Part shown: positions 48,688 to 58,787 of the stretch, in pieces
Numbering within the stretch: position 1 is the stretch's first letter
Layout of the letters: every line of letters starts with the position of its first letter
Assembly: GCA_017499595.2 (NCBI GenBank)
Contig: CM039002.1
Span: forward strand, 930,001 to 994,000
Reading direction: 5' to 3'
Length of the DNA stretch: 64,000 bases
Source of the DNA: Psilocybe cubensis
Taxonomy: Eukaryota
Position numbers and translations under genes: made by a program
The notes under the pieces: generated by a model
What the model saw: the letters and a program-made list of their open reading frames with translations, nothing else
Databases searched by the model: none
What the model was told of the DNA's origin: nothing

Positions 48688-49742
48688 TGGGATAAAAATG
48701 AGTGATGTATCAGAACGAAATAGTCGAGGATGATATCAACGAGTAGTAGGGGTGAAGAGAAGGTTCGAACGGAGGGCAAGTGAGGATAGCAACTCCCCGC
48801 AGTGCAGTCCCTTTTATACTGCCAACACCGGCAAGATAGCATTGTTCCGACGGAGATACTCGAACAAAGCGGGAAGCAAGTAGTGAGGCACATTGCAGGC
48901 CTGTTGCATCGCTGCGGACATCTCGAGGCCTAAACAAACTTGAATGTGCCATTCCGGGGCCATAACAAAGGCCATACAGATTCACCACCTCGAAAGTGCA
49001 AACAATCACATTCTGTGTCAAACAGAACAAGATCATATAAGCATTTGTGGTAGATTTCTGCTCTCCAACAATATATAAATCGAGGGTGTGAGAGGTTAAA
49101 CGCAACACATGGAAGTAGGTGTGGTCGAGGAGCAACTTGCCTGAAACTCTGGCCAACACACCTTGGCGGAACTTGCAAAAAATCGTGGCATCGAGGCACG
49201 TGACCGTGGTAAAATGTGAGTTGTTCGGACTTGGTAACGGCGGTAAACTTGAGTGAATCCTGAGTCAACATGATTTTCATGACAACGACCTATTACTTGC
49301 CTAGCGAATCCTTGTTCAATTGTTTGAATTATCACATTCCCAGACTAGTGGAGATTAAAATCGAAAGTATAGAACGACGTGAGACCGTAGATGTTGTTTT
49401 AAAATTGATTTGACAAGTTGAAGGTCAGGGCCGAGTCTGTTCCAAAAGGGCGTCTAAATCCTCCAATGCAAAAAAAAAAAAGATTGCCTTTGTTGAGTAT
49501 ATTCACGCGCTAAGGAAAAATTAAACCTGCCATCATATGCTAAATTGATCATAGATCAACGAGTCACAAAGTTTCTGTTTATGTCACTATCGATCCAGGT
49601 GCATATTTGTTTCGTGACGATTGTATCCTTGTTTTCAGAAATATTTATTGGTATTTGGCACTGGATGATTGTAAATGAGTATGGTATGACTCGTTCATTG
49701 AGTTAGCAAACAGTGCATACATCAGCCGCTGATGGGTAAATA

Positions 49743-52700
49743 TTAAAACCTGAAAACCCTATCTAAAGCACGGCCAATAGGAGTGAAAAAACCTCCACCT
49801 CCTCCTCCGCCACCACGGTTAGCCATCCGCAAACTCTGAATTTGGGATTCAAGCTCAGATTTCTGTTTGTCTGCTTTAGCAGAAGTCTGCGAAAGCTGAT
49901 CTCTAAGCCCAGACAGCTGTCGATTGTGCTCGGCACTCGCTCTTTCTTGTTCCCTACGTGATGCTTCTGACATCTCTTGCATTCGATTTTCAAGCCTCTC
50001 TTTTTCTTTGCGGTAGTCGGTGGCCAACTTTTGAGATTCATTCTGCACGCGCATCATCTCCGCTTGGAGCTTGTTCGCCTCTGCCTCGAGCTCTCGTCTT
50101 GCCTCCTCGTCTTTAACGCGTATCGCCTCTGGATGTGACAAAATTTCCTATGATTAGAATTGCAAGATATATACAAATAAAACCTACCTTTCATTTCTTC
50201 TCTAACAGCCTTGATCTCCTTACGGTGCTTCTCAATCTGCTCCATCATCTCCTTATTCAACTGCGCTCCAGCGGCCGTCTGCGCCATATCCTTTCCCTCA
50301 TCAACCAGCTCGCGCTGGATCTGCAGCGCCATCGGGTGGTTCTGAAGTATACGCCTAATAACACTCAACGCCGCAGCGCGCGTATTATCGTGCCGGAGGA
50401 ACTGCGCGCCTTTCGCGATGACGGGCTTGAAAAAGATGTCCTGCGTAGCGAGCTCGTGCGCGCGCGCCTCGCCTACCTCCGGTTTGACTTCGCCCCACAT
50501 GTTGGTGAGGATGACAACGTTGCGGAGCGTGCTCTCGCCGCAGAGCTCGCGGAACATTTTAAAGTTCCTTGTTGAGATGCCGGTCATACGGAAATCTGAG
50601 ATGCGGTGGATGTAGATCACACCCGCGAGGCGCTTGCCGTGTTCGTACCTATTTGCAAAGAAGAAGGGATATGAAGAGAAGATAATTGCGTAGACGGTGA
50701 GTTTGGCCTACGTTTCAGCGAGAAACATGGCGATCATACGCAGAACGTCCGCGTCACTCTTGGTGGTATCATCAAACCCGGGGGTGTCAATGAGACTAAC
50801 GGACCGCCCGTCGAGCTCAAAGGACGGCGCTAGCTCGACCGCGCCCGTGCAAGAGTGGAGACCCTGCCCGACTTTGAGGTTTGCCCCGCTCGCGAGGTTG
50901 ATGAACTGTGCCAGGCAAGGTGCCGTACAACCGACGGTCAGTTCAGACGATGCGTCGAGTCAAAAAAAAAAAGGACAAAGGCTTACGCTGGTTTTGCCGG
51001 TGCCTGTAGCTCCCATGACACTGTTGGAGAGAGACATGGTTACGGTTGCCGCCTCAAACATGGCCTACATAAGGCAACTGTTCCGCTATCAAGAAGCGGT
51101 GGATGGGGGTCCTGGCACTGCGTTACTTTCCTGTTTGTCACGTCAGGTAGAACTGCTGTTCAGACCCTCTATGTGTGGCTGTGGTTGGCCGGCTCGGGGG
51201 AAGTCGGAGTTTCAAATTTCAACCTCTGTCCGTGAGCCGGAGCCTCGAGGTGCTTCTCCGAAATATCCTTACCCCACCTCCTCGTTCTCTAACAAATTGG
51301 CATACAGCTGTACAACTCCCTCAAGTCACCACTCATTATACCTACCTTGCCGTCGGCTACCCTCCAACCTTGAGACAGGCATGCCGCCATGTCCCCGTTT
51401 AGATGGAGCATTTTGTGTGTTTGTTTAAGTTGGTGGTGTACAACGCCGTCTTCCAGCGTATTCCTGCGCTGTAAAAATTGGCCCTTATTCTACACAGCTT
51501 ATAAGTAGATTAATTAGGTTGTATTATATATTGCTCATGAATTGGACTATGAGAAATGTTATTTTTTGATGAAAACTAAATATACAATAAGTCTCAGCCG
51601 AATGAAACAAAGGGCTGATATATTGACCTAAATATACGATAAGTCTACAAACTCAATCAGCTATGTTTTATGAGTGACAAAATTGAATTTACCTCAGCCG
51701 AATGAAACAAAGGGCTGAGGTAGTGAGACGAGATGAGCCGGTATATGTGAGGATTGTGAAGTCAGAGAAGTTGATGAAGAAAATAAGGAAGGTGATGCGT
51801 TGTACGCTGAAGGAAAAGAAACTACTGAACTCAGTAGTAGGACAGGGGCTACCGGATCGAATGGTCCGACTACAAATAAGGAAGGTCCAGGTGTAAAAAA
51901 GGAAAGAAGGGAGAATAAAACATAAGTAAAGAACTCGTATTCCAACACACCCCCTCAACGCATCGCCTTACTGACTGTTTTCAAATCGACAAGACCCAAG
52001 CGAGTCACGCCTTCCAGGAATTTGACACGCTGAAGTGGTTTCGTGAGAATGTCGGCAGGGTTCTCCTTCCCAGGAATGTGAAGAATGTGAAAGGTCTTTG
52101 CTTCGATGTGGGAGCGAATAAAATGATATCGGATGTCGATGTGTTTGGCTTTGGAGTGTGAAGAGTCATTCTCACAGAGAGACTTGGCGCCTTCGTTGTT
52201 GGTAGCGACCACTAAGGGATTCGGGCATACAATATGAAGATATGAGAGTGACGACCCCAGCCATAAGCCTTCTTGAACTGTCCGTGTCAGTGCGATGTAC
52301 TCTGACTCTGTTGAGCTTGTCGAGATACAGGTCTGTGTCTTTGATGACCAACTCAACGGACCGCCCGCGACCATCCACACGAAGCCCGATACAGACGCAC
52401 GGGATTCCTTGTTCCCAGCCCAATCTGCGTCGGAGTAGCCTTGAAGTGCTTGAGATGCATCTTTACCCCCGTAGTGGAGACGATAGTTCCGTGTTCCACT
52501 CAAGTAGCAAAGGACTCGTTTGGCCGTGGCAAAGTGTCTGGGTTGAGGATTTGAAGCGTGTTGTGAAAGTAAGAGAACGGCAATGGAGATATCAGGACGA
52601 GAATGACGTTGTATGAAGAGAAGGGACCCTATGAGACGCTGAAACATGGACTTGATGTTTGGAATGTCTGGAAATACATCTGTTTCTTGCCCGAAAATGT

Positions 52701-55700
52701 TATTGGCGTCGAGTGGGGTCGAGACGGGGCTACAGTTGAGAAGTCCGTATTCGTCTAGAACACTCTCAATGTACGGTGTCTGATGGATCCATACTTCTCG
52801 GGTGATTGTGTTTCTCTCGTATTGAACTCCCAGATATGAGCGTAGAGGGCCGAGGTCCTTGATGCCGAATCTTTTATTAATTTCAGATTTTGCGTGGTCG
52901 AGAAATGCCTTTGAGTTGGAGGCACCAAGTCCGTCGTCAACATGAATGCACAACCAGCAGTGCACCTGTACCCCATTCCAAACTCCTTTGAAGATGAAAG
53001 TTGCATGGTCTTTCTCTGATCGCTTGAATCCTATGTCCTGAAGAGTTGAACGAATCAGAATATACCACACGCTACTTGCCTGCTTCAATCCGTAAAGCGA
53101 CTTCTTCAACCTCCATACGCCTTTCGGGAAAGGAGATGAGTAACCAGGGGGGCACTTCATGTAGATGACCTCTGTTAAATCTCCCCACAGGAAAGCCCTC
53201 GTAGCATCGAAACATTCTATGTGCCATCCATTAAGAGTTGCATGCACGACTATAGCTCTGATGCTGACAGATTTGGATACGGGCGCAAACGTTTCATGAT
53301 AGTCAATAAGGTATTTCTGGGAGAACCCTTGAGCAACGAGCCTCGCCTTGTAAACTAGTTCTCCATGCTCGTCTATTTTGAACTCGAAGACCCATCGACA
53401 TCCTATAGTGTGTGTGCCATCCAGAAATTGCTCGTCCATGTACACGTTCATTGACTTGAGCATATTTAGCTCCTTTTCGACAACTTTCTGCCACTGGTCG
53501 GCGTCAGGACGCTGCATTGCTTCAAAGTAGTTGGCTGGTGGAATTTTGAGATCGTAGTTGGGGGAATGAGGGTTTCTTCTCTGTTCGCTCCTGACCGAGA
53601 GCAGAATAGCCTCGAAAAAAGCGTCCTTGTCTCGTGTAAGGTAGTCTTCGACGTCAAGAGAAACTAGTAATGCTTCTTCAGAGACATCGCTGTGAGGATG
53701 ATGTTCTAGCATTCCAACGGAGCACAAGGATATAAACGGATTGTCATCGTCACCCCCTTGCTCGGTGGAAGGCTGAACGGTTGACGATTTCTCGGCACTA
53801 GTCGCCCTGCGTGAAGCTTTAATGGACTTGCTTTTTGCTTTCTCTGCGTCGCGGAATTGGTTGTACAAGAGTCCTCTCGAGAAAAGATGACGTTCCCTTG
53901 ATGATGAAAGAGGTGGTGGCAAGATACGTCGAGCTTCTGGAGTCGGAGGTTGTTGAGGTGGAAGGGAAGGGGGAGTTGCAGGAATAATGTCAAGATTTAC
54001 TGAAGGAGACGAGGTGGAAGCAGAAGAAAAGGTAGAAGAAGAATTAAGGAGTTGAGGAGAGTCTAAGTCAGAGGGAGTAGCTGCAAGATTTGGAAGAAAA
54101 GAAGGAGAAATAGTAGAAGGAGAAGAAGAGAAAAGATCAGAAAAGAAAGGTAAGGACGAGTAGTCTATGGGAAGAGAAGAGGTACTGTTAGAAAGAAAAG
54201 AAACATTTTTGTCAAACACAGCATTAGAAGAATCAAAGAAATGTCCTGTTTCAAGATGACGGAACCGGTACCCTTTTCCACCTGGCGGGTAACCCATAAA
54301 TCTGCATTGCACAGATTTTGCTCCCAGCTTTGATTGCTACTCGTCGGGGACATGGACGAACGCGCGGCATCCCCATACACGGAGGTGAGAGAGATTAGGT
54401 GGACAATGATACATATTCTCGAAGGGAGTGATTCCATCCTCGTCGGTGCTTGTTACGTTGAGAAGGTAAGACGCAGTCAGAGCAGCTTCACCCCAATATG
54501 TCATGGGAAGTTGGGCCGTGGTGAGCATTGCGAGCATGCGGCCTTGAATTGTTCTCATGAAACGTTCAATTTCGCCATTCATCCAATGTTCGCGTGCCGG
54601 CGTGACTTCCTGTTCAATTCCCACATCCAATAGGTAAGCAGCAAAACTTCCTTTCCATTCCGGACCCCCATCACATCGAAAACGTTTGATTTTGCAGCCT
54701 GTACGCGTCTCCCAGCGAGCTTTGACTATCTTAAAGGCCTCTAACATTGTGTCGGTGGTTTTGTCTGCAGTAAGCTGGACATTATTGACTTTCATCCCAA
54801 CGCATCTGAAGGCGACAAAATATTCTTTATGGTGTGGTGTTTGAACCGGGAAAGGACCGCAGGTGTCGGCAACTACAAGTTCGAGGGGTTGATAGGCGCG
54901 CTGGCCAAGAGAGCTTGGCGGATGTGGGGTAGCGGGGTGCTTGGCAATGATGCACGGTTCGCACTTTATGTTTTCATCTCTCACGTCTGCTTTAATCACC
55001 CTTTTGACCAGCATGCGTGTGGCTTGTTCTCCAGGATGTCCCAGATGGAGATGATGAAGGTACATCGTCTCCGGGACCTTCACAAACATAGCTCTTTCGA
55101 CAATAGAATCTTCAGATCCTGGTACGAAGACTCCATTGTCTATTGCAAATAAGCCGTTAATGAGTGAAGCGGAGGCAAACGCGACACCCCTTTTGGAAAG
55201 GTGTATTCCACGTCCTGGATCGAAATTGCATCCGATTCCTGCGATGAATAATCGACTAACGGAGAGTAGGTTTACGGCTGCAGAAGGTGCGTGAAGGCAA
55301 TTATTGAGCTTTAGTTTGATTACTTTGCCCTTATAAGTCACGTTCAGGATGCATGTACCGCCGCCCTGGGTTCTGAGAGTCCCAAGATTGGCTGTAGTGA
55401 CGTTCCTGGCATCGCCCTCGGAATAAGTGTGGAATAGAGAACGCGATTTGATGATGTGGGAGGTAGCACCGGAGTCGAGCAGGATAGACGTGGATAAGAA
55501 AGATCTCGTATTCGCAGAGGCGACAACGTCAGTGTTCTGATGTATATCTTCGATGTCTTCAATTAATGCACAAGAGATCTCGCCACTGGTTTCCAGAGAG
55601 GCAGAGTCAGTTGCTATCGAAGCCATTTCCGCCCTTTTCGCTGCGACTGCTGCTTGATATGCCGGTCCCTGCCCTTCCATGCCTCCACCCTTTGCCCAAC

Positions 55701-58206
55701 AGTGTTCTTTGTCGTGCGAACGATTTTTACAGTTGGTGCAACGTACTCCATTCGGATTGTTAGCATGTTTGGCTATAGGGCGATTTTCATTTGAAAAATT
55801 GGAATATTCCGAACCAGGAGGGTGACGTTTAGAGCCTGCTTCCGCTTCTAGGCGCTGACATTCTATGGTTAGGCGCGATATAATTCTCTCAAGAGCAGTG
55901 TTTGGTGCAAAAGGTGTTCTCCCCTCGTCGACTGCGGCTTTGTCCCTATCCAATGTGTCTTGATACAACTGTATCATCAGTTGTTTGAAGTTGGGCCATA
56001 TACCCGAAGACGGAAGACCACGAATAATGTGGTGAATGATATCGCCCTCCGGGTAATCGACGCCCATGTCTTTAAGACGCTCCCTGCCAGTGCGGAATTC
56101 CCCAAGGTACTTTTCAATTTCAGTATAATCCTTGAGTTTGATGGACGCTAGTTTCTCCTTGATAGCGAACTGAGCATTGATATCGACACGAGCATACCTC
56201 GTCATAATTTGATTCCATAACATTCGCGCAGTAACGTCTTCTCCTACGCTCAAGTTCGATTTAACGAGCGCTGACACCTTTCTGGTGATTAGTGTTTTGG
56301 CGCTATCGTTGTCGCTCCACCATTTTCTGTAGGCAGTGATGACTTCGTCGGATGCGTCGTTTGCAGGTTCTGCAGGTTTGGGTGAGACCAGATAGCGTGC
56401 AGTTCTGCTTTCGGATCCCTCAATATGTCCATAGACGCCGCAATCCTTTAGGATATTCCTCATGTCATCCCTCCATGCTATGAAATTTGATGTTCCCTTG
56501 AGGTTGACGATATGATCTACCTTCGCATTTGCAGGTGTGATCTTGTTATTCATTGTGAAATTGTTGATGGTGGTATGGGCAGTGTTTGGAATCTCTGCTG
56601 CCATTTTGGTATGATTTTGTCAAGTGAAATGAGTATGGAGTTTGATAATAAAACTGGTGTCCTTTGAAGAAAAACTGTGCAAGCCTGATAGCTGAGTTTC
56701 GTCTGTCTTCGTTTACTTCAGGCGCGAGCGGGGCCCATAACCTGATGAAAACTAAATATACGATAAGTCTCAGCCGAATGAAACAAAGGGCTGATATATT
56801 GACCTAAATATACGATAAGTCTACAAACTCAATCAGCTATGTTTTATGAGTGACAAAATTGAATTTACCTCAGCCGAATGAAACAAAGGGCTGAGGTAGT
56901 GAGACGAGATGAGCCGGTATATGTGAGGATTGTGAAGTCAGAGAAGTTGATGAAGAAAATAAGGAAGGTGATGCGTTGTACGCTGAAGGAAAAGGAACTA
57001 CTGAACTCAGTAGTAGGACAGGGGCTACCGGATCGAATGGTCCGACTACAAATAAGGAAGGTCCAGGTGTAAAAAAGGAAAGAAGGGAGAATAAAACATA
57101 AGTAAAGAACTCGTATTCCAACATTTTTCACAGTATATAACAGTGCTTTACCGGAAAGTGTGAATGTGACTCAGAAATTGGACATAGGATACAAGCAACA
57201 TGGAAACCCGATCACCCTTCAATTTAAGTTTTTGCTTGTTTCTGCCTCGTGTTCTGATAAACTTGGGGGTTCGTTTCCATTTCTATTGTCAGGTTCGAAC
57301 CGCTGAGGCAACGAGAAAAAAAGAATAAAAACATTGAAACCTTGACATGTTGTTGAACGATGAAAAAGAGGAAACCTTCGACTCGTACACGGAATATTTA
57401 ATTTTGAGTCTTAACAAACGGAAGTGAGTGTCGATTACACCTTAGCAGCATGAGCCAGGACTACTAATTTGTCAATTCACTTGTAACCTCTGCAACTGAA
57501 AAGCAGACTCGTTATCCAATATGGCAAAACACAGCCGTACTAACAGCCCAGTGGCTTCTTTTAATTGGACATTGTAATTTATTGTATTCATAGATGCAGA
57601 ATCATTGAAGCGCGTCCGGAGCCGCTTCAACGATTCAGAGGCGAGTCAGCGATTCCGATTGAGAGGCGATTCTGCGTCTTCCCACGCTTCTGATGAGGAG
57701 AATCACCTCTGCGTTTGAATCGTCTACTCTGACCTCCCATAATGCATATAATACAAACTTAGCTCTACATATTAAACTGATAGAATAATCTGATACTCGA
57801 ACTTCAACTTCAATTTTGTTCAGGCTCATGTGCCAGCAGCCAGTAACACTTTGGTAATGGCACTAGCAAATGATTTATCCTCGGCTGTCGGCAGAACATT
57901 GACTGTACAGTGTCGGAGATTGTAAAGCTGCAAAAGGTGTCACAGAGGTAACGGAGAGTTATGCTACGAGGAAGGGACCCCGATTAACAAAAACGGACTC
58001 AGATTCGACGATCTGCAAGAAAGTTAGACCATGTTTGAGGCGGCAACCGTACATGGTTATTTCCTTGTCTGATATTTTGGAAGAGGTTCAGCTGCTCACG
58101 CGATTGTGACTTTGGTGTTATCGACGACGCTAGCCTGGAAGATACTCAGACAATCATGTTATGTATGTCAAGCAAGAGGACATCTACGTGCCTTGTTACT
58201 GCTCAT
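49743..58206 (-). CDS. P-loop GTPase (AIG1/MMR_HSR1-like) with C-terminal coiled coil; intron 2 expanded to 7.1 kb by transposons
   Basis: Exon 1 58206-58192 (MSSNK, GC-AG intron) and exon 2 58134-58100 (ASVVDNTKVTIA) join exon 3 at 51020 (VMGATGTGKTS). Later motifs SCT, LIDTPGFDDT, IYIHRISDFRM, VILTNMW. Confidence 0.88.
51567..51947 (-). repeat. 3' LTR of the Copia element
   Basis: 381-bp direct repeat of 56743-57123, with 2 mismatches found by eye. Preceded on the minus strand by PPT GAGGGGGTG. Confidence 0.96.
51955..56604 (-). CDS. Copia gag-pol polyprotein interrupted by one in-frame TAG at 54337-54339
   Basis: Gag knuckle CTNCKNRSHDKEHC, protease LLDSGATSH, integrase HLGH...CEPC / DTCGP / RCDGGPEW / NGEIER, RT YKARLVAQGF / SLYGLKQ / HVDD, RNase H YSDADWAG / KHIDIRYHFIR. 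Confidence 0.93.
56729..56742 (-). other. Primer-binding site, half-tRNAiMet type
   Basis: GGTTATGGGCCC directly follows the 5' LTR, the PBS type known from Drosophila copia and Ty5. Confidence 0.85.
56743..57123 (-). repeat. 5' LTR of the Copia element
   Basis: 381-bp direct repeat of 51567-51947. Confidence 0.96.
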
Positions 58207-58787
58207 GGCGGAGGGAAAGGAAGAGATGTGTACCCTACTTCACGTCGAATGCACCTTTTTTATATGTGCTCTTCACGGTGTCTACACGTGTGAGGGTGGT
58301 TCGATTGTGTCTCCAATAAAAGACCTTCCGCAGCTCATATTACACCTTAATCCAGTCACCAGATGTGCACGCAAATGGCGAGTACAGGCGTTGAGGGCTT
58401 GCGCACCAGCATGTGGAAGGACTCTGCTGGAACGATTGTGATCCATCGGATAGACGCCCATCGAGTTCACCGCGAAAGATGCCGTTCCAAATTGAAAACT
58501 TGTTCGCACGTTACAATAACAAGAGGCAGCAGCAGAAATTCCAGAACGCATGGTTCAGGACAACCTCGTTTGTCGGGACCTGACTGTCACTGTCAAATGT
58601 GAACAGGCGGAATGGTTGGACATATATTTGTGCAGTGTGCCCAGCGCCGCACAGCACACATATCGTAAGCAGGCTATGCTACGACTGCACATATATTAAA
58701 CAGCTGCTTCGTCGCGCAAAGCAGCCTCAACGCAGCCAACATCCAAACAATTATCCAGTCTCCCATCAAAGAAAACATTGCAGCACA

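What the first reader, a model, noticed from the sequence alone, without database searches (positions are those of the whole stretch)
49743..58206. Russian-doll locus: Copia inside a TIR element inside a GTPase intron (62 nt expanded to 7,079 nt)
Seen: the GTPase lacks a start near 51.0 kb, but two small exons at 58206-58192 and 58134-58100 join perfectly (VTIA|VMGATGTGKT). Removing 51042-58050 plus one 8-bp duplication leaves a normal 62-nt intron. The insertion hit the branch-point region, yet the element end plus the duplicated target recreates TAAC (ataac becomes gtaac) at the same distance from the CAG acceptor. The exons I read show no lesions. Inference: either an intron about 100 times the local norm is spliced through TE chromatin, or this is a recent knockout allele. 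The Copia is co-oriented, so its 5' LTR could terminate the transcript and its 3' LTR could drive the downstream exons from the in-frame Met of VMGATG.
Basis: partly seen in the sequence, partly recalled or inferred. Interest (0 to 1): 0.8.

Follow-up and report, generated by a model that had tools for sequence, protein, structure and literature searches.

The report
Strain-specific nested transposon in GTPase intron
A mushroom (Psilocybe cubensis) GTPase gene carries, in this assembly only, a 7-kb transposon-within-transposon inside a normally 62-base intron; other strains have the clean intron, so this is an ordinary recent insertion allele.

Summary
A six-exon G-domain GTPase gene (minus strand, 58206-49743; NCBI JR316_0005793 of Psilocybe cubensis) has intron 2 swollen from 62 to 7,079 nt. 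The insert is 7,009 bp (51042-58050). It is a 1.45-kb non-autonomous TIR element (perfect 22-bp TIRs, 8-bp duplication) that itself holds a co-oriented 5,557-bp Ty1/Copia (381-bp LTRs, 379/381 identical, 5-bp duplication, one in-frame stop).

New here:
- The predicted empty site exists. All 3 other DNA runs laid show a joint skipping exactly 7,017 nt (7,009 + 8).
- An intron-free (RNA-like) run joins exons 1-2-3-4 exactly as predicted, including a GC-AG intron 1.
- That expressed allele differs from the window's and probably comes from an empty-site strain. It proves the gene model, not splicing across 7 kb.
- The public protein's start (MSLSNS...) uses an ATG in the target duplication and is an artefact of the insertion.

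Most likely this is a recent, polymorphic insertion allele that no longer makes the full-length protein. A strong decoy acceptor lies 37 nt inside the element. This loss of function is inferred, not shown. The kind of event is known, so interest is modest.

The parts
58192..58206 (-). GTPase exon 1 (ATG at 58206; MSSNK)
   Evidence: model. The X10 intron-free contig covers 58190-58225 with 0 differences and joins it to exon 2.
58135..58191 (-). Intron 1, 57 nt, GC-AG
   Evidence: The X10 joint skips 57 nt, with 4 ambiguous bases. Only the +2 register gives GC...AG.
58100..58134 (-). GTPase exon 2 (ASVVDNTKVTIA, beta-1 strand before the P-loop)
   Evidence: Orthologues read ...VVD..VTIAVMGATGSGKT. 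45 of 62 P-loop-bearing homologues have this hydrophobic motif.
51021..58099 (-). Intron 2 in this allele, 7,079 nt (62 nt in the empty allele)
   Evidence: X10 joint 51020|58100 with GT..AG ends. DNA joint 51033|58051 skipping 7,017 nt in X5, X6 and X13.
58051..58058 (-). Target-site duplication, upstream copy (AACCATGT)
51034..51041 (-). Target-site duplication, downstream copy. It holds the ATG (51037-51035) used as the start in the public annotation.
57124..58050 (-). TIR element, upstream arm (927 bp). TIR 58050-58029. Decoy branch point CTAAC 58027-58023 and decoy acceptor CAG ending at 58013.
51042..51566 (-). TIR element, downstream arm (525 bp). TIR 51042-51063. Cryptic donor GTAGGC at 51068.
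51567..57123 (-). Ty1/Copia LTR retrotransposon, 5,557 bp, co-oriented with the gene, flanked by AAAAA (57128-57124 and 51566-51562)
   Evidence: Copia-free copies of the TIR element (joint skipping 5,562 = 5,557 + 5) occur in X13 (44 reads) and X5.
56743..57123 (-). 5' LTR (381 bp, TG...CA)
51567..51947 (-). 3' LTR (381 bp). It differs from the 5' LTR by two C-to-T changes, at 51819 and 51586.
54340..56619 (-). Copia ORF part 1: gag (Retrotran_gag_2), Pol_BBD, gag_pre-integrs, weak rve, and the start of the SH3 domain
54337..54339 (-). In-frame TAG that splits the integrase SH3-like domain
51958..54336 (-). Copia ORF part 2: rest of the SH3 domain, and RVT_2
50987..51020 (-). GTPase exon 3 (VMGATGTGKTS, P-loop)
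50712..50905 (-). GTPase exon 4 (includes DTPG)
   Evidence: X10 joint skipping 81 nt.
50188..50648 (-). GTPase exon 5
   Evidence: X10 joint skipping 63 nt.
49743..50128 (-). GTPase exon 6 (coiled-coil tail and stop). The 3' UTR reaches at least 49649.
   Evidence: X10 joint skipping 59 nt and contig reaching 49649.

Best explanation
This is a recent, strain-specific (polymorphic) nested transposon insertion in intron 2 of an ordinary, expressed G-domain GTPase gene of Psilocybe cubensis.

Shown:
- A 1,447-bp non-autonomous TIR DNA transposon sits 21 nt upstream of the acceptor, with an 8-bp duplication.
- It carries a 5,557-bp Ty1/Copia with a 5-bp duplication.
- The ancestral allele, with the 62-nt intron, exists in other strains.
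- The gene is transcribed and spliced exon 1-2-3-4-5-6 in an RNA-like run.

Inferred: in the insertion allele the full-length mRNA is lost or strongly reduced. Fungi pair splice sites across short introns. The native donor (58099) now meets a good decoy acceptor only 87 nt away (CTAAC, then 11 nt to CAG at 58013). Using it puts a stop 15 codons later, giving a 32-residue peptide. Plain read-through stops right after exon 2. Any longer transcript must cross a co-oriented Copia with two LTRs. With many paralogues in the genome, the loss is probably tolerated.

The public protein model (363 aa, MSLSNSVMGATG...) starts at an ATG inside the target duplication. It is an annotation artefact caused by the insertion.
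For: Identity. Exon 5 is 100% identical to P0005, JR316_0005793 of P. cubensis.

Structure., as under the observation check.

Empty site:
- The joint 51033->58051 skips 7,017 nt, with 9 ambiguous bases.
- X5 shows it in 1 contig at depth 10.3, against single-copy contigs at 11.1-12.4.
- X6 shows it in 1 contig.
- X13 shows it in 36 raw reads. The upstream flank depth there is about 34. About 35x is expected from 1,631.7 M letters read over a 46.6-Mb genome (abstract of PMC8220353).
- X5's flanks have 0 differences in 49400-49905 and in 58081-58490.

Nesting. The joint skipping 5,562 nt (5,557 + 5) is seen in X13 (44 reads) and X5.

Gene model. A 300-nt X10 contig lies on 50709-50905, 50987-51020, 58100-58132 and 58190-58225. 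Together with X10's two other contigs, all five introns are removed. X10 depth is 0 over 51266-57796.

N-terminus. Orthologues read ..VVDSSDVTIAVMGATGSGKT. 45 of 62 P-loop-bearing homologues have the V.IAVM-type strand.

Decoy acceptor and early stops..

Context. The neighbourhood is gene-rich: 0 TE domains were found in the 20 large ORFs I scanned of the 41 listed.

Literature:
- Fungi recognise introns mainly by intron definition, and short introns under 200 bp are the ones recognised this way (PMC2397502, passages).
- In Pleurotus ostreatus up to 50% of TE insertions were polymorphic between two strains. 21 genes were inactive in the TE-bearing allele and active in the TE-free one (PMC4905642, passages).
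Against: - No RNA from a strain shown to carry the insertion was examined, so loss of the full-length mRNA is inference only.
- The donor, branch-point-like TAAC, polypyrimidine tract and acceptor of intron 2 are all intact. All six exons are undamaged. Correct splicing is therefore not excluded.
- The LTRs differ at 2 of 381 sites. That is slightly more than the 0 of 916 differences between the window and X5 flanks. It fits an older Copia better than one that arrived after a very recent TIR insertion, although the counts are too small to be significant.
The frequency of the insertion allele is unknown.
- Whether the assembled strain also carries an empty haplotype is unknown.
Confidence: 0.72

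Rival explanations
1. The 7,079-nt TE-filled intron is removed correctly, at useful levels, in the insertion-bearing strain, so the gene still works.
For: All authentic splice signals survive. TAAC is recreated 19 nt from the acceptor. The exons are intact.
Against: The local introns are 57-81 nt. Fungi use intron definition (PMC2397502). Four decoy acceptors with branch-point-like motifs lie 87-197 nt from the donor. The Copia is co-oriented. Intact exons say little for a recent insertion. The X10 junction cannot count as support, because its allele differs from the window's.
Confidence: 0.13
2. Exons 3-6 are expressed from a promoter in the 3' LTR or the TIR arm. The product is an N-terminally altered GTPase starting at 51061, 51037 or 51016. 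It could coexist with the best explanation.
For: In-frame ATGs at 51061, 51037 and 51016 are open into exon 3. A cryptic donor GTAGGC at 51068 could pair with the authentic acceptor, giving a 48-nt intron.
Against: Between the LTR and exon 3 lie six ATGs that end in stops, two in frame and four out of frame, and they would act as upstream ORFs. The product would lack the conserved V.IAVM strand before the P-loop, which 45 of 62 homologues have. There are no expression data.
Confidence: 0.12
3. The empty-site reads come from a paralogous copy (for example JR316_0005799), not from an allele. The insertion would then be fixed and old.
For: A paralogue more than 90% identical exists on the same contig. 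X6 depth over 49943-50924 is about double the single-copy level (43.8 against 24.7).
Against: The paralogue's annotated protein shares nothing with exons 1-3; similarity to the window ends inside intron 3, near 50950. X5 and X6 contigs break at 50924, as expected if the copies diverge there. X5's joint contig and both its flanks are at single-copy depth (10.3, 11.1, 12.4). In X13 the upstream flank depth (about 34) equals the expected genome depth (about 35), and the 36 joint reads account for it.
Confidence: 0.06
4. The TIR element already carried the Copia at another locus, and the 7-kb composite then transposed as one unit into the intron. That would be one recent event instead of two.
For: The TIRs and the 8-bp duplication are perfect. 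LTR divergence (2/381) is not lower than flank divergence to X5 (0/916).
Against: No run shows this Copia/TIR junction elsewhere. X13 and X5 show the TIR element without the Copia at this site. The source genome could not be searched.
Confidence: 0.25

Closest known systems
Polymorphic TE insertions that silence adjacent genes in Pleurotus ostreatus (Castanera et al. 2016, PMC4905642; passages read)
   Same: Both are Agaricomycetes. In both, an insertion (mostly LTR retrotransposons) is present in one strain and absent in another, and the TE-free allele is active.
   Different: Those cases were scored in 1-kb windows around genes; the word 'intron' does not occur in that paper's main text. Here the insertion is a two-level nest inside an intron, and expression of the TE-bearing allele was not measured.
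The 4.6-kb strain-specific insertion at the psilocybin-cluster N-methyltransferase gene reported for a P. cubensis HiFi draft (PMC8220353; passages read)
   Same: Same species. A kilobase-scale insertion in one assembly appears as a 'deletion' in other strains' DNA and RNA-seq.
   Different: It is a different locus, at the gene's 3' end. The nature of that insert is not described in the passages I saw. I did not establish whether that assembly is the one this window comes from.
Ty1/Copia LTR retrotransposons
   Same: LTRs with TG...CA ends, a 5-bp duplication, and the order gag - protease-like barrel - integrase - RVT_2.
   Different: This copy has an in-frame TAG in the integrase C-terminal domain. 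The integrase core matches Pfam rve only weakly (E 0.096).
Non-autonomous TIR DNA transposons with 8-bp duplications (hAT-like; recalled that hAT, P and Merlin give 8 bp and Mutator 9-11 bp)
   Same: Perfect 22-bp TIRs, an 8-bp duplication (9 bp also possible), multiple copies in other strains, a precise empty site, and no ORF that looks like a transposase.
   Different: The superfamily cannot be assigned. The termini (ACGG...) do not match the hAT terminal or target-site patterns I recall. At 1.45 kb it is larger than a typical MITE.
Intronic heterochromatic TEs transcribed through in plants (IBM2/EDM2-dependent; recalled, no call)
   Same: It would work like this only if the 7-kb intron is in fact spliced.
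   Different: No evidence for that here. Fungal introns are recognised across the intron and are very short.

Membership tests
Ty1/Copia LTR retrotransposon | Two long terminal direct repeats ending TG...CA | tested here: met
   381-bp LTRs, 379/381 identical, TGTTGG...CATCA
Ty1/Copia LTR retrotransposon | Short (5-bp) target-site duplication | tested here: met
   AAAAA on both sides. Copia-free copies skip 5,562 = 5,557 + 5 nt. The repeat is low-complexity, so it is weak on its own.
Ty1/Copia LTR retrotransposon | Integrase upstream of reverse transcriptase, with Copia-type gag and RVT_2 | tested here: met
   Retrotran_gag_2 1.4e-12, Pol_BBD 3.2e-15, gag_pre-integrs 4.8e-05, rve 0.096 (weak), SH3_retrovirus, then RVT_2 1.7e-51
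Ty1/Copia LTR retrotransposon | Uninterrupted gag-pol frame (autonomy) | tested here: not met
   One in-frame TAG at 54339-54337
Non-autonomous TIR (class II) transposon | Terminal inverted repeats flanked by a target-site duplication | tested here: met
   22-bp perfect TIRs, 0 expected by chance. 8-bp AACCATGT duplication.
Non-autonomous TIR (class II) transposon | Precise empty site in other genomes | tested here: met
   Joint skipping 7,017 nt in 3 of 3 DNA runs laid
Non-autonomous TIR (class II) transposon | Repeated in the genome with different flanks | tested here: met
   In X13, loose ends at both element ends (52 and 72 reads, agreement 0.61-0.69). Arm depth reaches 2-3 times the flank depth. 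There is no second copy in the window.
hAT superfamily | hAT transposase or family-typical termini | not testable with these tools
   No transposase ORF in the 1,447 bp. The source genome is not held. The TIR was not found in metagenome contigs.
TRAFAC-class G-domain GTPase (Pfam MMR_HSR1 / AIG1-like) | G-domain profile match above threshold | tested here: met
   P0005 scores 23.7 bits on MMR_HSR1 (cut-off 21.9); orthologue P0007 scores 30.1 bits. AIG1 is below its cut-off.
TRAFAC-class G-domain GTPase (Pfam MMR_HSR1 / AIG1-like) | P-loop GxxxxGK[ST] preceded by a beta-1 strand, and DxxG | tested here: met
   VTIAVM-GATGTGKT in the six-exon model. DTPG in exon 4. GTP binding was not assayed.
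Spliceosomal intron (intron 2, empty allele) | Removed from transcripts at GT...AG | tested here: met
   X10 joint 51020|58100, with ends CT..AC on the + strand
Spliceosomal intron (intron 2, 7,079-nt insertion allele) | Removed from transcripts of the insertion-bearing strain | not tested
   No RNA run of a strain shown to carry the insertion was available

The most novel reading that the evidence does not exclude
The 7,079-nt intron, more than 100 times the local norm and filled with a co-oriented Copia inside a DNA transposon, is spliced correctly in the insertion-bearing strain. Together with the near-identical empty-site strains, that would give a natural allele pair for measuring how far an intron-definition fungus can stretch an intron, and whether it has a read-through mechanism for intronic TEs.
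Probability: 0.12. Interest if true: 0.6.

Novelty: new member of a known kind. Interest (0 to 1): 0.3.

Why it matters
Practical points:
- The public protein model for this gene (JR316_0005793) has a false N-terminus and misses two exons. Gene models of the whole family often miss the short 5' exons as well.
- The locus documents recent activity of a TIR family and a Copia family in P. cubensis lineages.

The scientific value is modest. The locus offers a natural pair of alleles, a 62-nt and a 7,079-nt intron with otherwise identical flanks. One RT-PCR on that pair would show what a short-intron fungus does with a TE-filled intron: decoy splicing, premature termination, silencing, or splicing through.

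Tried and rejected
- Whole-genome search of the source: no genome is held. Other copies of the TIR element and Copia, the paralogue's DNA and heterozygosity in the source could therefore not be examined.
- RNA runs: no RNA holder listed. X10 is only guessed to be RNA. I treat it as cDNA-derived at this locus because its contigs lack all five introns and it has 0 depth over the 6.5 kb of TE.
- X10's 51020|58100 junction as proof of splicing across 7 kb: rejected. X10's allele differs from the window (12 differences in 480 nt and 5 in 461 nt of its 3' contig), and all DNA runs laid carry the empty site.
- Alternative intron 1 with the GT donor at 58188: rejected. It breaks the frame into exon 3, and only the GC...AG register fits the RNA joint.
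- Pfam on single exons: no hits. The whole annotated protein was needed.
- Second GTPase copy in the window: none.
- Other copies of the TIR arms, LTR or Copia in the window: none.
- TIR in metagenome contigs: 0 matches.
- tRNA genes in the window, to check the primer-binding site: 0.
- Earlier notes of this scan: none for this genome.
- TE-rich neighbourhood as a cause of silencing: not supported. None of the 20 large ORFs I scanned, of the 41 listed, has a TE domain. They include eIF-5/eIF-2B, DnaJ and RAI1 genes.
- Dating the insertion from LTR divergence: not attempted beyond p = 0.0052. No rate comes from any call, both changes are C-to-T (one at a CpG), and the counts are tiny.
- Literature: searches found no paper on this locus or on TE-filled introns in Psilocybe. 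I read only passages of PMC8220353, PMC4905642 and PMC2397502, and no supplements.

Full report
**What the window is.** Exon 5 of the gene in question is 100% identical to a 363-aa NCBI protein, JR316_0005793 of Psilocybe cubensis, from a 3.68-Mb contig. The search gave 299 proteins at E <= 0.001 among 1,108 candidates, and the best 120 were listed. Nearly all are 'G domain-containing' or 'P-loop NTPase' proteins of Agaricomycetes. The annotated protein passes Pfam MMR_HSR1 (23.7 bits, cut-off 21.9). The Galerina orthologue scores 30.1 bits. No whole genome is held for this window.

**Checking the observation.** On the minus strand the exons are:
- 58206-58192
- 58134-58100
- 51020-50987
- 50905-50712
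- 50648-50188
- 50128-49743

Together they give a 374-codon frame with only the terminal stop (my first exon 5 boundary was one base off and was corrected). The introns are 57, 7,079, 81, 63 and 59 nt. Intron 2 contains 51042-58050 (7,009 bp), bounded by a perfect 22-bp inverted repeat. That repeat occurs only twice in the window, with 0 expected in 100 shuffles. It is flanked by AACCATGT on both sides. Removing the element and one duplication copy leaves 62 nt.

Inside the element, 51567-57123 is an LTR element. Its 381-bp LTRs are 379/381 identical, with TG...CA ends and AAAAA flanks. The two LTR differences are both C in the 5' LTR against T in the 3' LTR, and one lies in a CpG. Pfam finds Copia-type gag, Pol_BBD, gag_pre-integrs, a weak rve (E 0.096), an SH3-like integrase domain and RVT_2 (1.7e-51), in the Copia order. 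The SH3 domain is split by a single in-frame TAG at 54339-54337. The Copia is on the gene's strand. The branch-point remark also holds: ATAAC in the restored intron and GTAAC in the filled one both lie 19 nt from the acceptor. It missed the GC donor of intron 1 and the stop in the Copia.

**Evidence from other strains.** One search for sequencing runs and one laying of reads were allowed. The search with 49743-51041 listed 15 runs. No holder is on record as RNA, and two runs are guessed to be RNA. I laid X10 (RNA?), X5, X6 and X13 (DNA) on 49400-58700. There were three results.

First, the predicted empty site exists. A joint from 51033 to 58051 skips 7,017 nt (7,009 + 8) with 9 ambiguous bases. 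It is seen in 3 of 3 DNA runs:
- X5: 1 contig at depth 10.3.
- X6: 1 contig at depth 35.8.
- X13: 36 raw reads starting at 19 places.

In X5 the neighbouring contigs are at single-copy depth (11.1 and 12.4) and are identical to the window: 0 differences over 49400-49905 and over 58081-58490. In X13 the upstream flank depth (about 34) matches the roughly 35x expected from 1,631.7 M letters read over a 46.6-Mb genome (abstract of PMC8220353). The 36 joint reads therefore account for essentially the whole locus.

Second, the nesting is real. A joint skipping 5,562 nt (5,557 + 5) shows copies of the TIR element without the Copia in X13 (44 reads) and X5 (1 contig). Loose ends at both element termini in X13 (52 and 72 reads with mixed flanks) show that the TIR element is a multi-copy family.

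Third, X10 confirms the gene model. One 300-nt contig lies on 50709-50905, 50987-51020, 58100-58132 and 58190-58225. Its joints skip 81, 7,079 and 57 nt. Other X10 contigs remove the 63- and 59-nt introns. X10 has no depth at all over 51266-57796. Of the five possible registers of the 57-nt joint, only one gives GC...AG.

**What the RNA does and does not show.** It does not show splicing across 7 kb. X10's expressed allele differs from the window by 17 positions in its 941-nt 3' contig. Several of these variants are shared with X13 or X6, which carry the empty site. The haplotype closest to the window (X5) also lacks the insertion. X10 most likely comes from a strain with the 62-nt intron.

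**Could the empty-site reads come from a paralogue?** A paralogue more than 90% identical, JR316_0005799, shares the cluster. It is not in the window. Its annotated protein matches the window only from inside intron 3 (about 50950) onward, and its first 18 residues match nothing here. X5 and X6 contigs break at 50924, as expected if the two copies diverge there. Combined with the single-copy depths above, I give this rival about 6%.

**The public annotation.** The 363-aa model begins MSLSNSVMGATG. Its ATG (51037-51035) lies in the downstream duplication copy, and the model reads through the acceptor. Orthologues read ..VVDSSDVTIAVMGATGSGKT, which matches exon 2 (ASVVDNTKVTIA). I examined 120 other proteins on file:
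- 62 carry the P-loop motif.
- 45 of those 62 have the hydrophobic V.IAVM-type strand directly before it.
- 10 of the 62 start at the Met right after this intron position.
- 58 lack the P-loop altogether.

The short 5' exons of this family are evidently often missed by gene callers.

**Most likely mechanism (inferred).** Fungi recognise splice sites mainly across short introns (PMC2397502, passages). In the filled allele the donor at 58099 meets, 87 nt downstream and 37 nt inside the element, a CTAAC followed 11 nt later by TTTCTTGCAG. Three further candidate acceptors lie at 136-197 nt. Using the first one gives a stop after 15 more codons. Plain retention gives a stop directly after exon 2. 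Longer transcripts must cross a co-oriented Copia.

A transcript started in the 3' LTR would meet six ATGs that end in stops, two in frame and four out of frame, before the open in-frame ATGs at 51061, 51037 and 51016. Its product would also lack the conserved strand before the P-loop.

In Pleurotus ostreatus, up to half of TE insertions were polymorphic between two strains. 21 genes were inactive in the TE-bearing allele and active in the TE-free one (PMC4905642, passages).

I put about 70% on loss or strong reduction of the full-length mRNA, about 13% on useful splicing-through, and about 12% on a TE-driven truncated transcript, which could coexist with the first.

**History.** The surroundings are gene-rich. 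The 20 large ORFs I scanned, of the 41 listed, include eIF-5/eIF-2B, DnaJ and RAI1 genes and none with a TE domain. This is an isolated recent insertion, not part of an old TE cluster.

I cannot tell whether the Copia entered the TIR element after that element landed in the intron, or whether a pre-formed composite moved as a unit. LTR divergence (2/381) is not lower than flank divergence to X5 (0/916), which leans slightly towards the composite. The counts are too small to decide, and the source genome could not be searched.

**Verdict.** The phenomenon is a strain-specific nested TE insertion in an intron of a member of a large paralogous family. That is a known kind of event, with modest interest as a natural test of intron-length tolerance and as an annotation correction.

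Noticed in passing
window 57842-57846 (TIR arm), seen in runs X13 and X6: Opposite-strand joints link both LTR ends (56743 and 51947/57125) to 57842-57846: 15, 7 and 6 reads in X13 and one contig in X6. In those strains a copy of the same Copia family (or a solo LTR) therefore sits in another copy of the TIR element, at a different site, in the opposite orientation, with a 5-bp duplication. That makes two independent Copia-in-TIR nests, which hints at a target preference or at co-location of the two families.
   Followed up: partly
paralogue P0121 (JR316_0005799), not in the window: Its annotated protein lacks the P-loop exon and reads through the 3' end of intron 3 (..APCLAQ|FINLASG). The model is either wrong or the paralogue is 5'-truncated or disrupted. 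It has no Pfam hit at E <= 0.01.
   Followed up: partly
window 56742-56721 (minus strand, just after the 5' LTR): The stretch after the 5' LTR does not begin with the usual TGG. From recall it looks complementary to the anticodon stem-loop region of an initiator tRNA-Met, as in Drosophila copia and yeast Ty5. There is no tRNA gene in the window to test this.
   Followed up: no
window 58135-58191: Intron 1 is a GC-AG intron (GCACGT...CCAG), confirmed by the RNA-like contig. Gene finders restricted to GT-AG would miss exon 1.
   Followed up: yes
window 58419-58700: The intergenic or promoter stretch shared with the divergent gene that starts at 58787 (+ strand) has very low depth in X13 (about 7, against about 34 next door). 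X6 has none here and almost none (0.92) from 58108. This suggests an indel or more than 5% divergence between strains.
   Followed up: no
window 50076-50085: X10 has four differences spaced three bases apart, all at third codon positions. A minority of X13 reads share them (2-7 of 36 and 3-5 of 28-34 reads on the two strands). This could be an allele or gene conversion from the paralogue.
   Followed up: no
homologues P0003, P0021, P0054, P0062, P0065, P0073, P0075, P0077, P0102, P0106: Ten public or metagenomic models of this family start exactly at the Met before the P-loop (MG.TG.GK). This suggests that the intron at this position is conserved and that the short upstream exons are routinely missed.
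   Followed up: partly
window 51041 and 58051: In X13 the loose ends of other TIR-element copies begin one base outside the element on both sides. Other insertion sites therefore also tend to have T/A at these positions. Either the target is biased (A......T on the + strand) or the true termini are one base longer.
   Followed up: no
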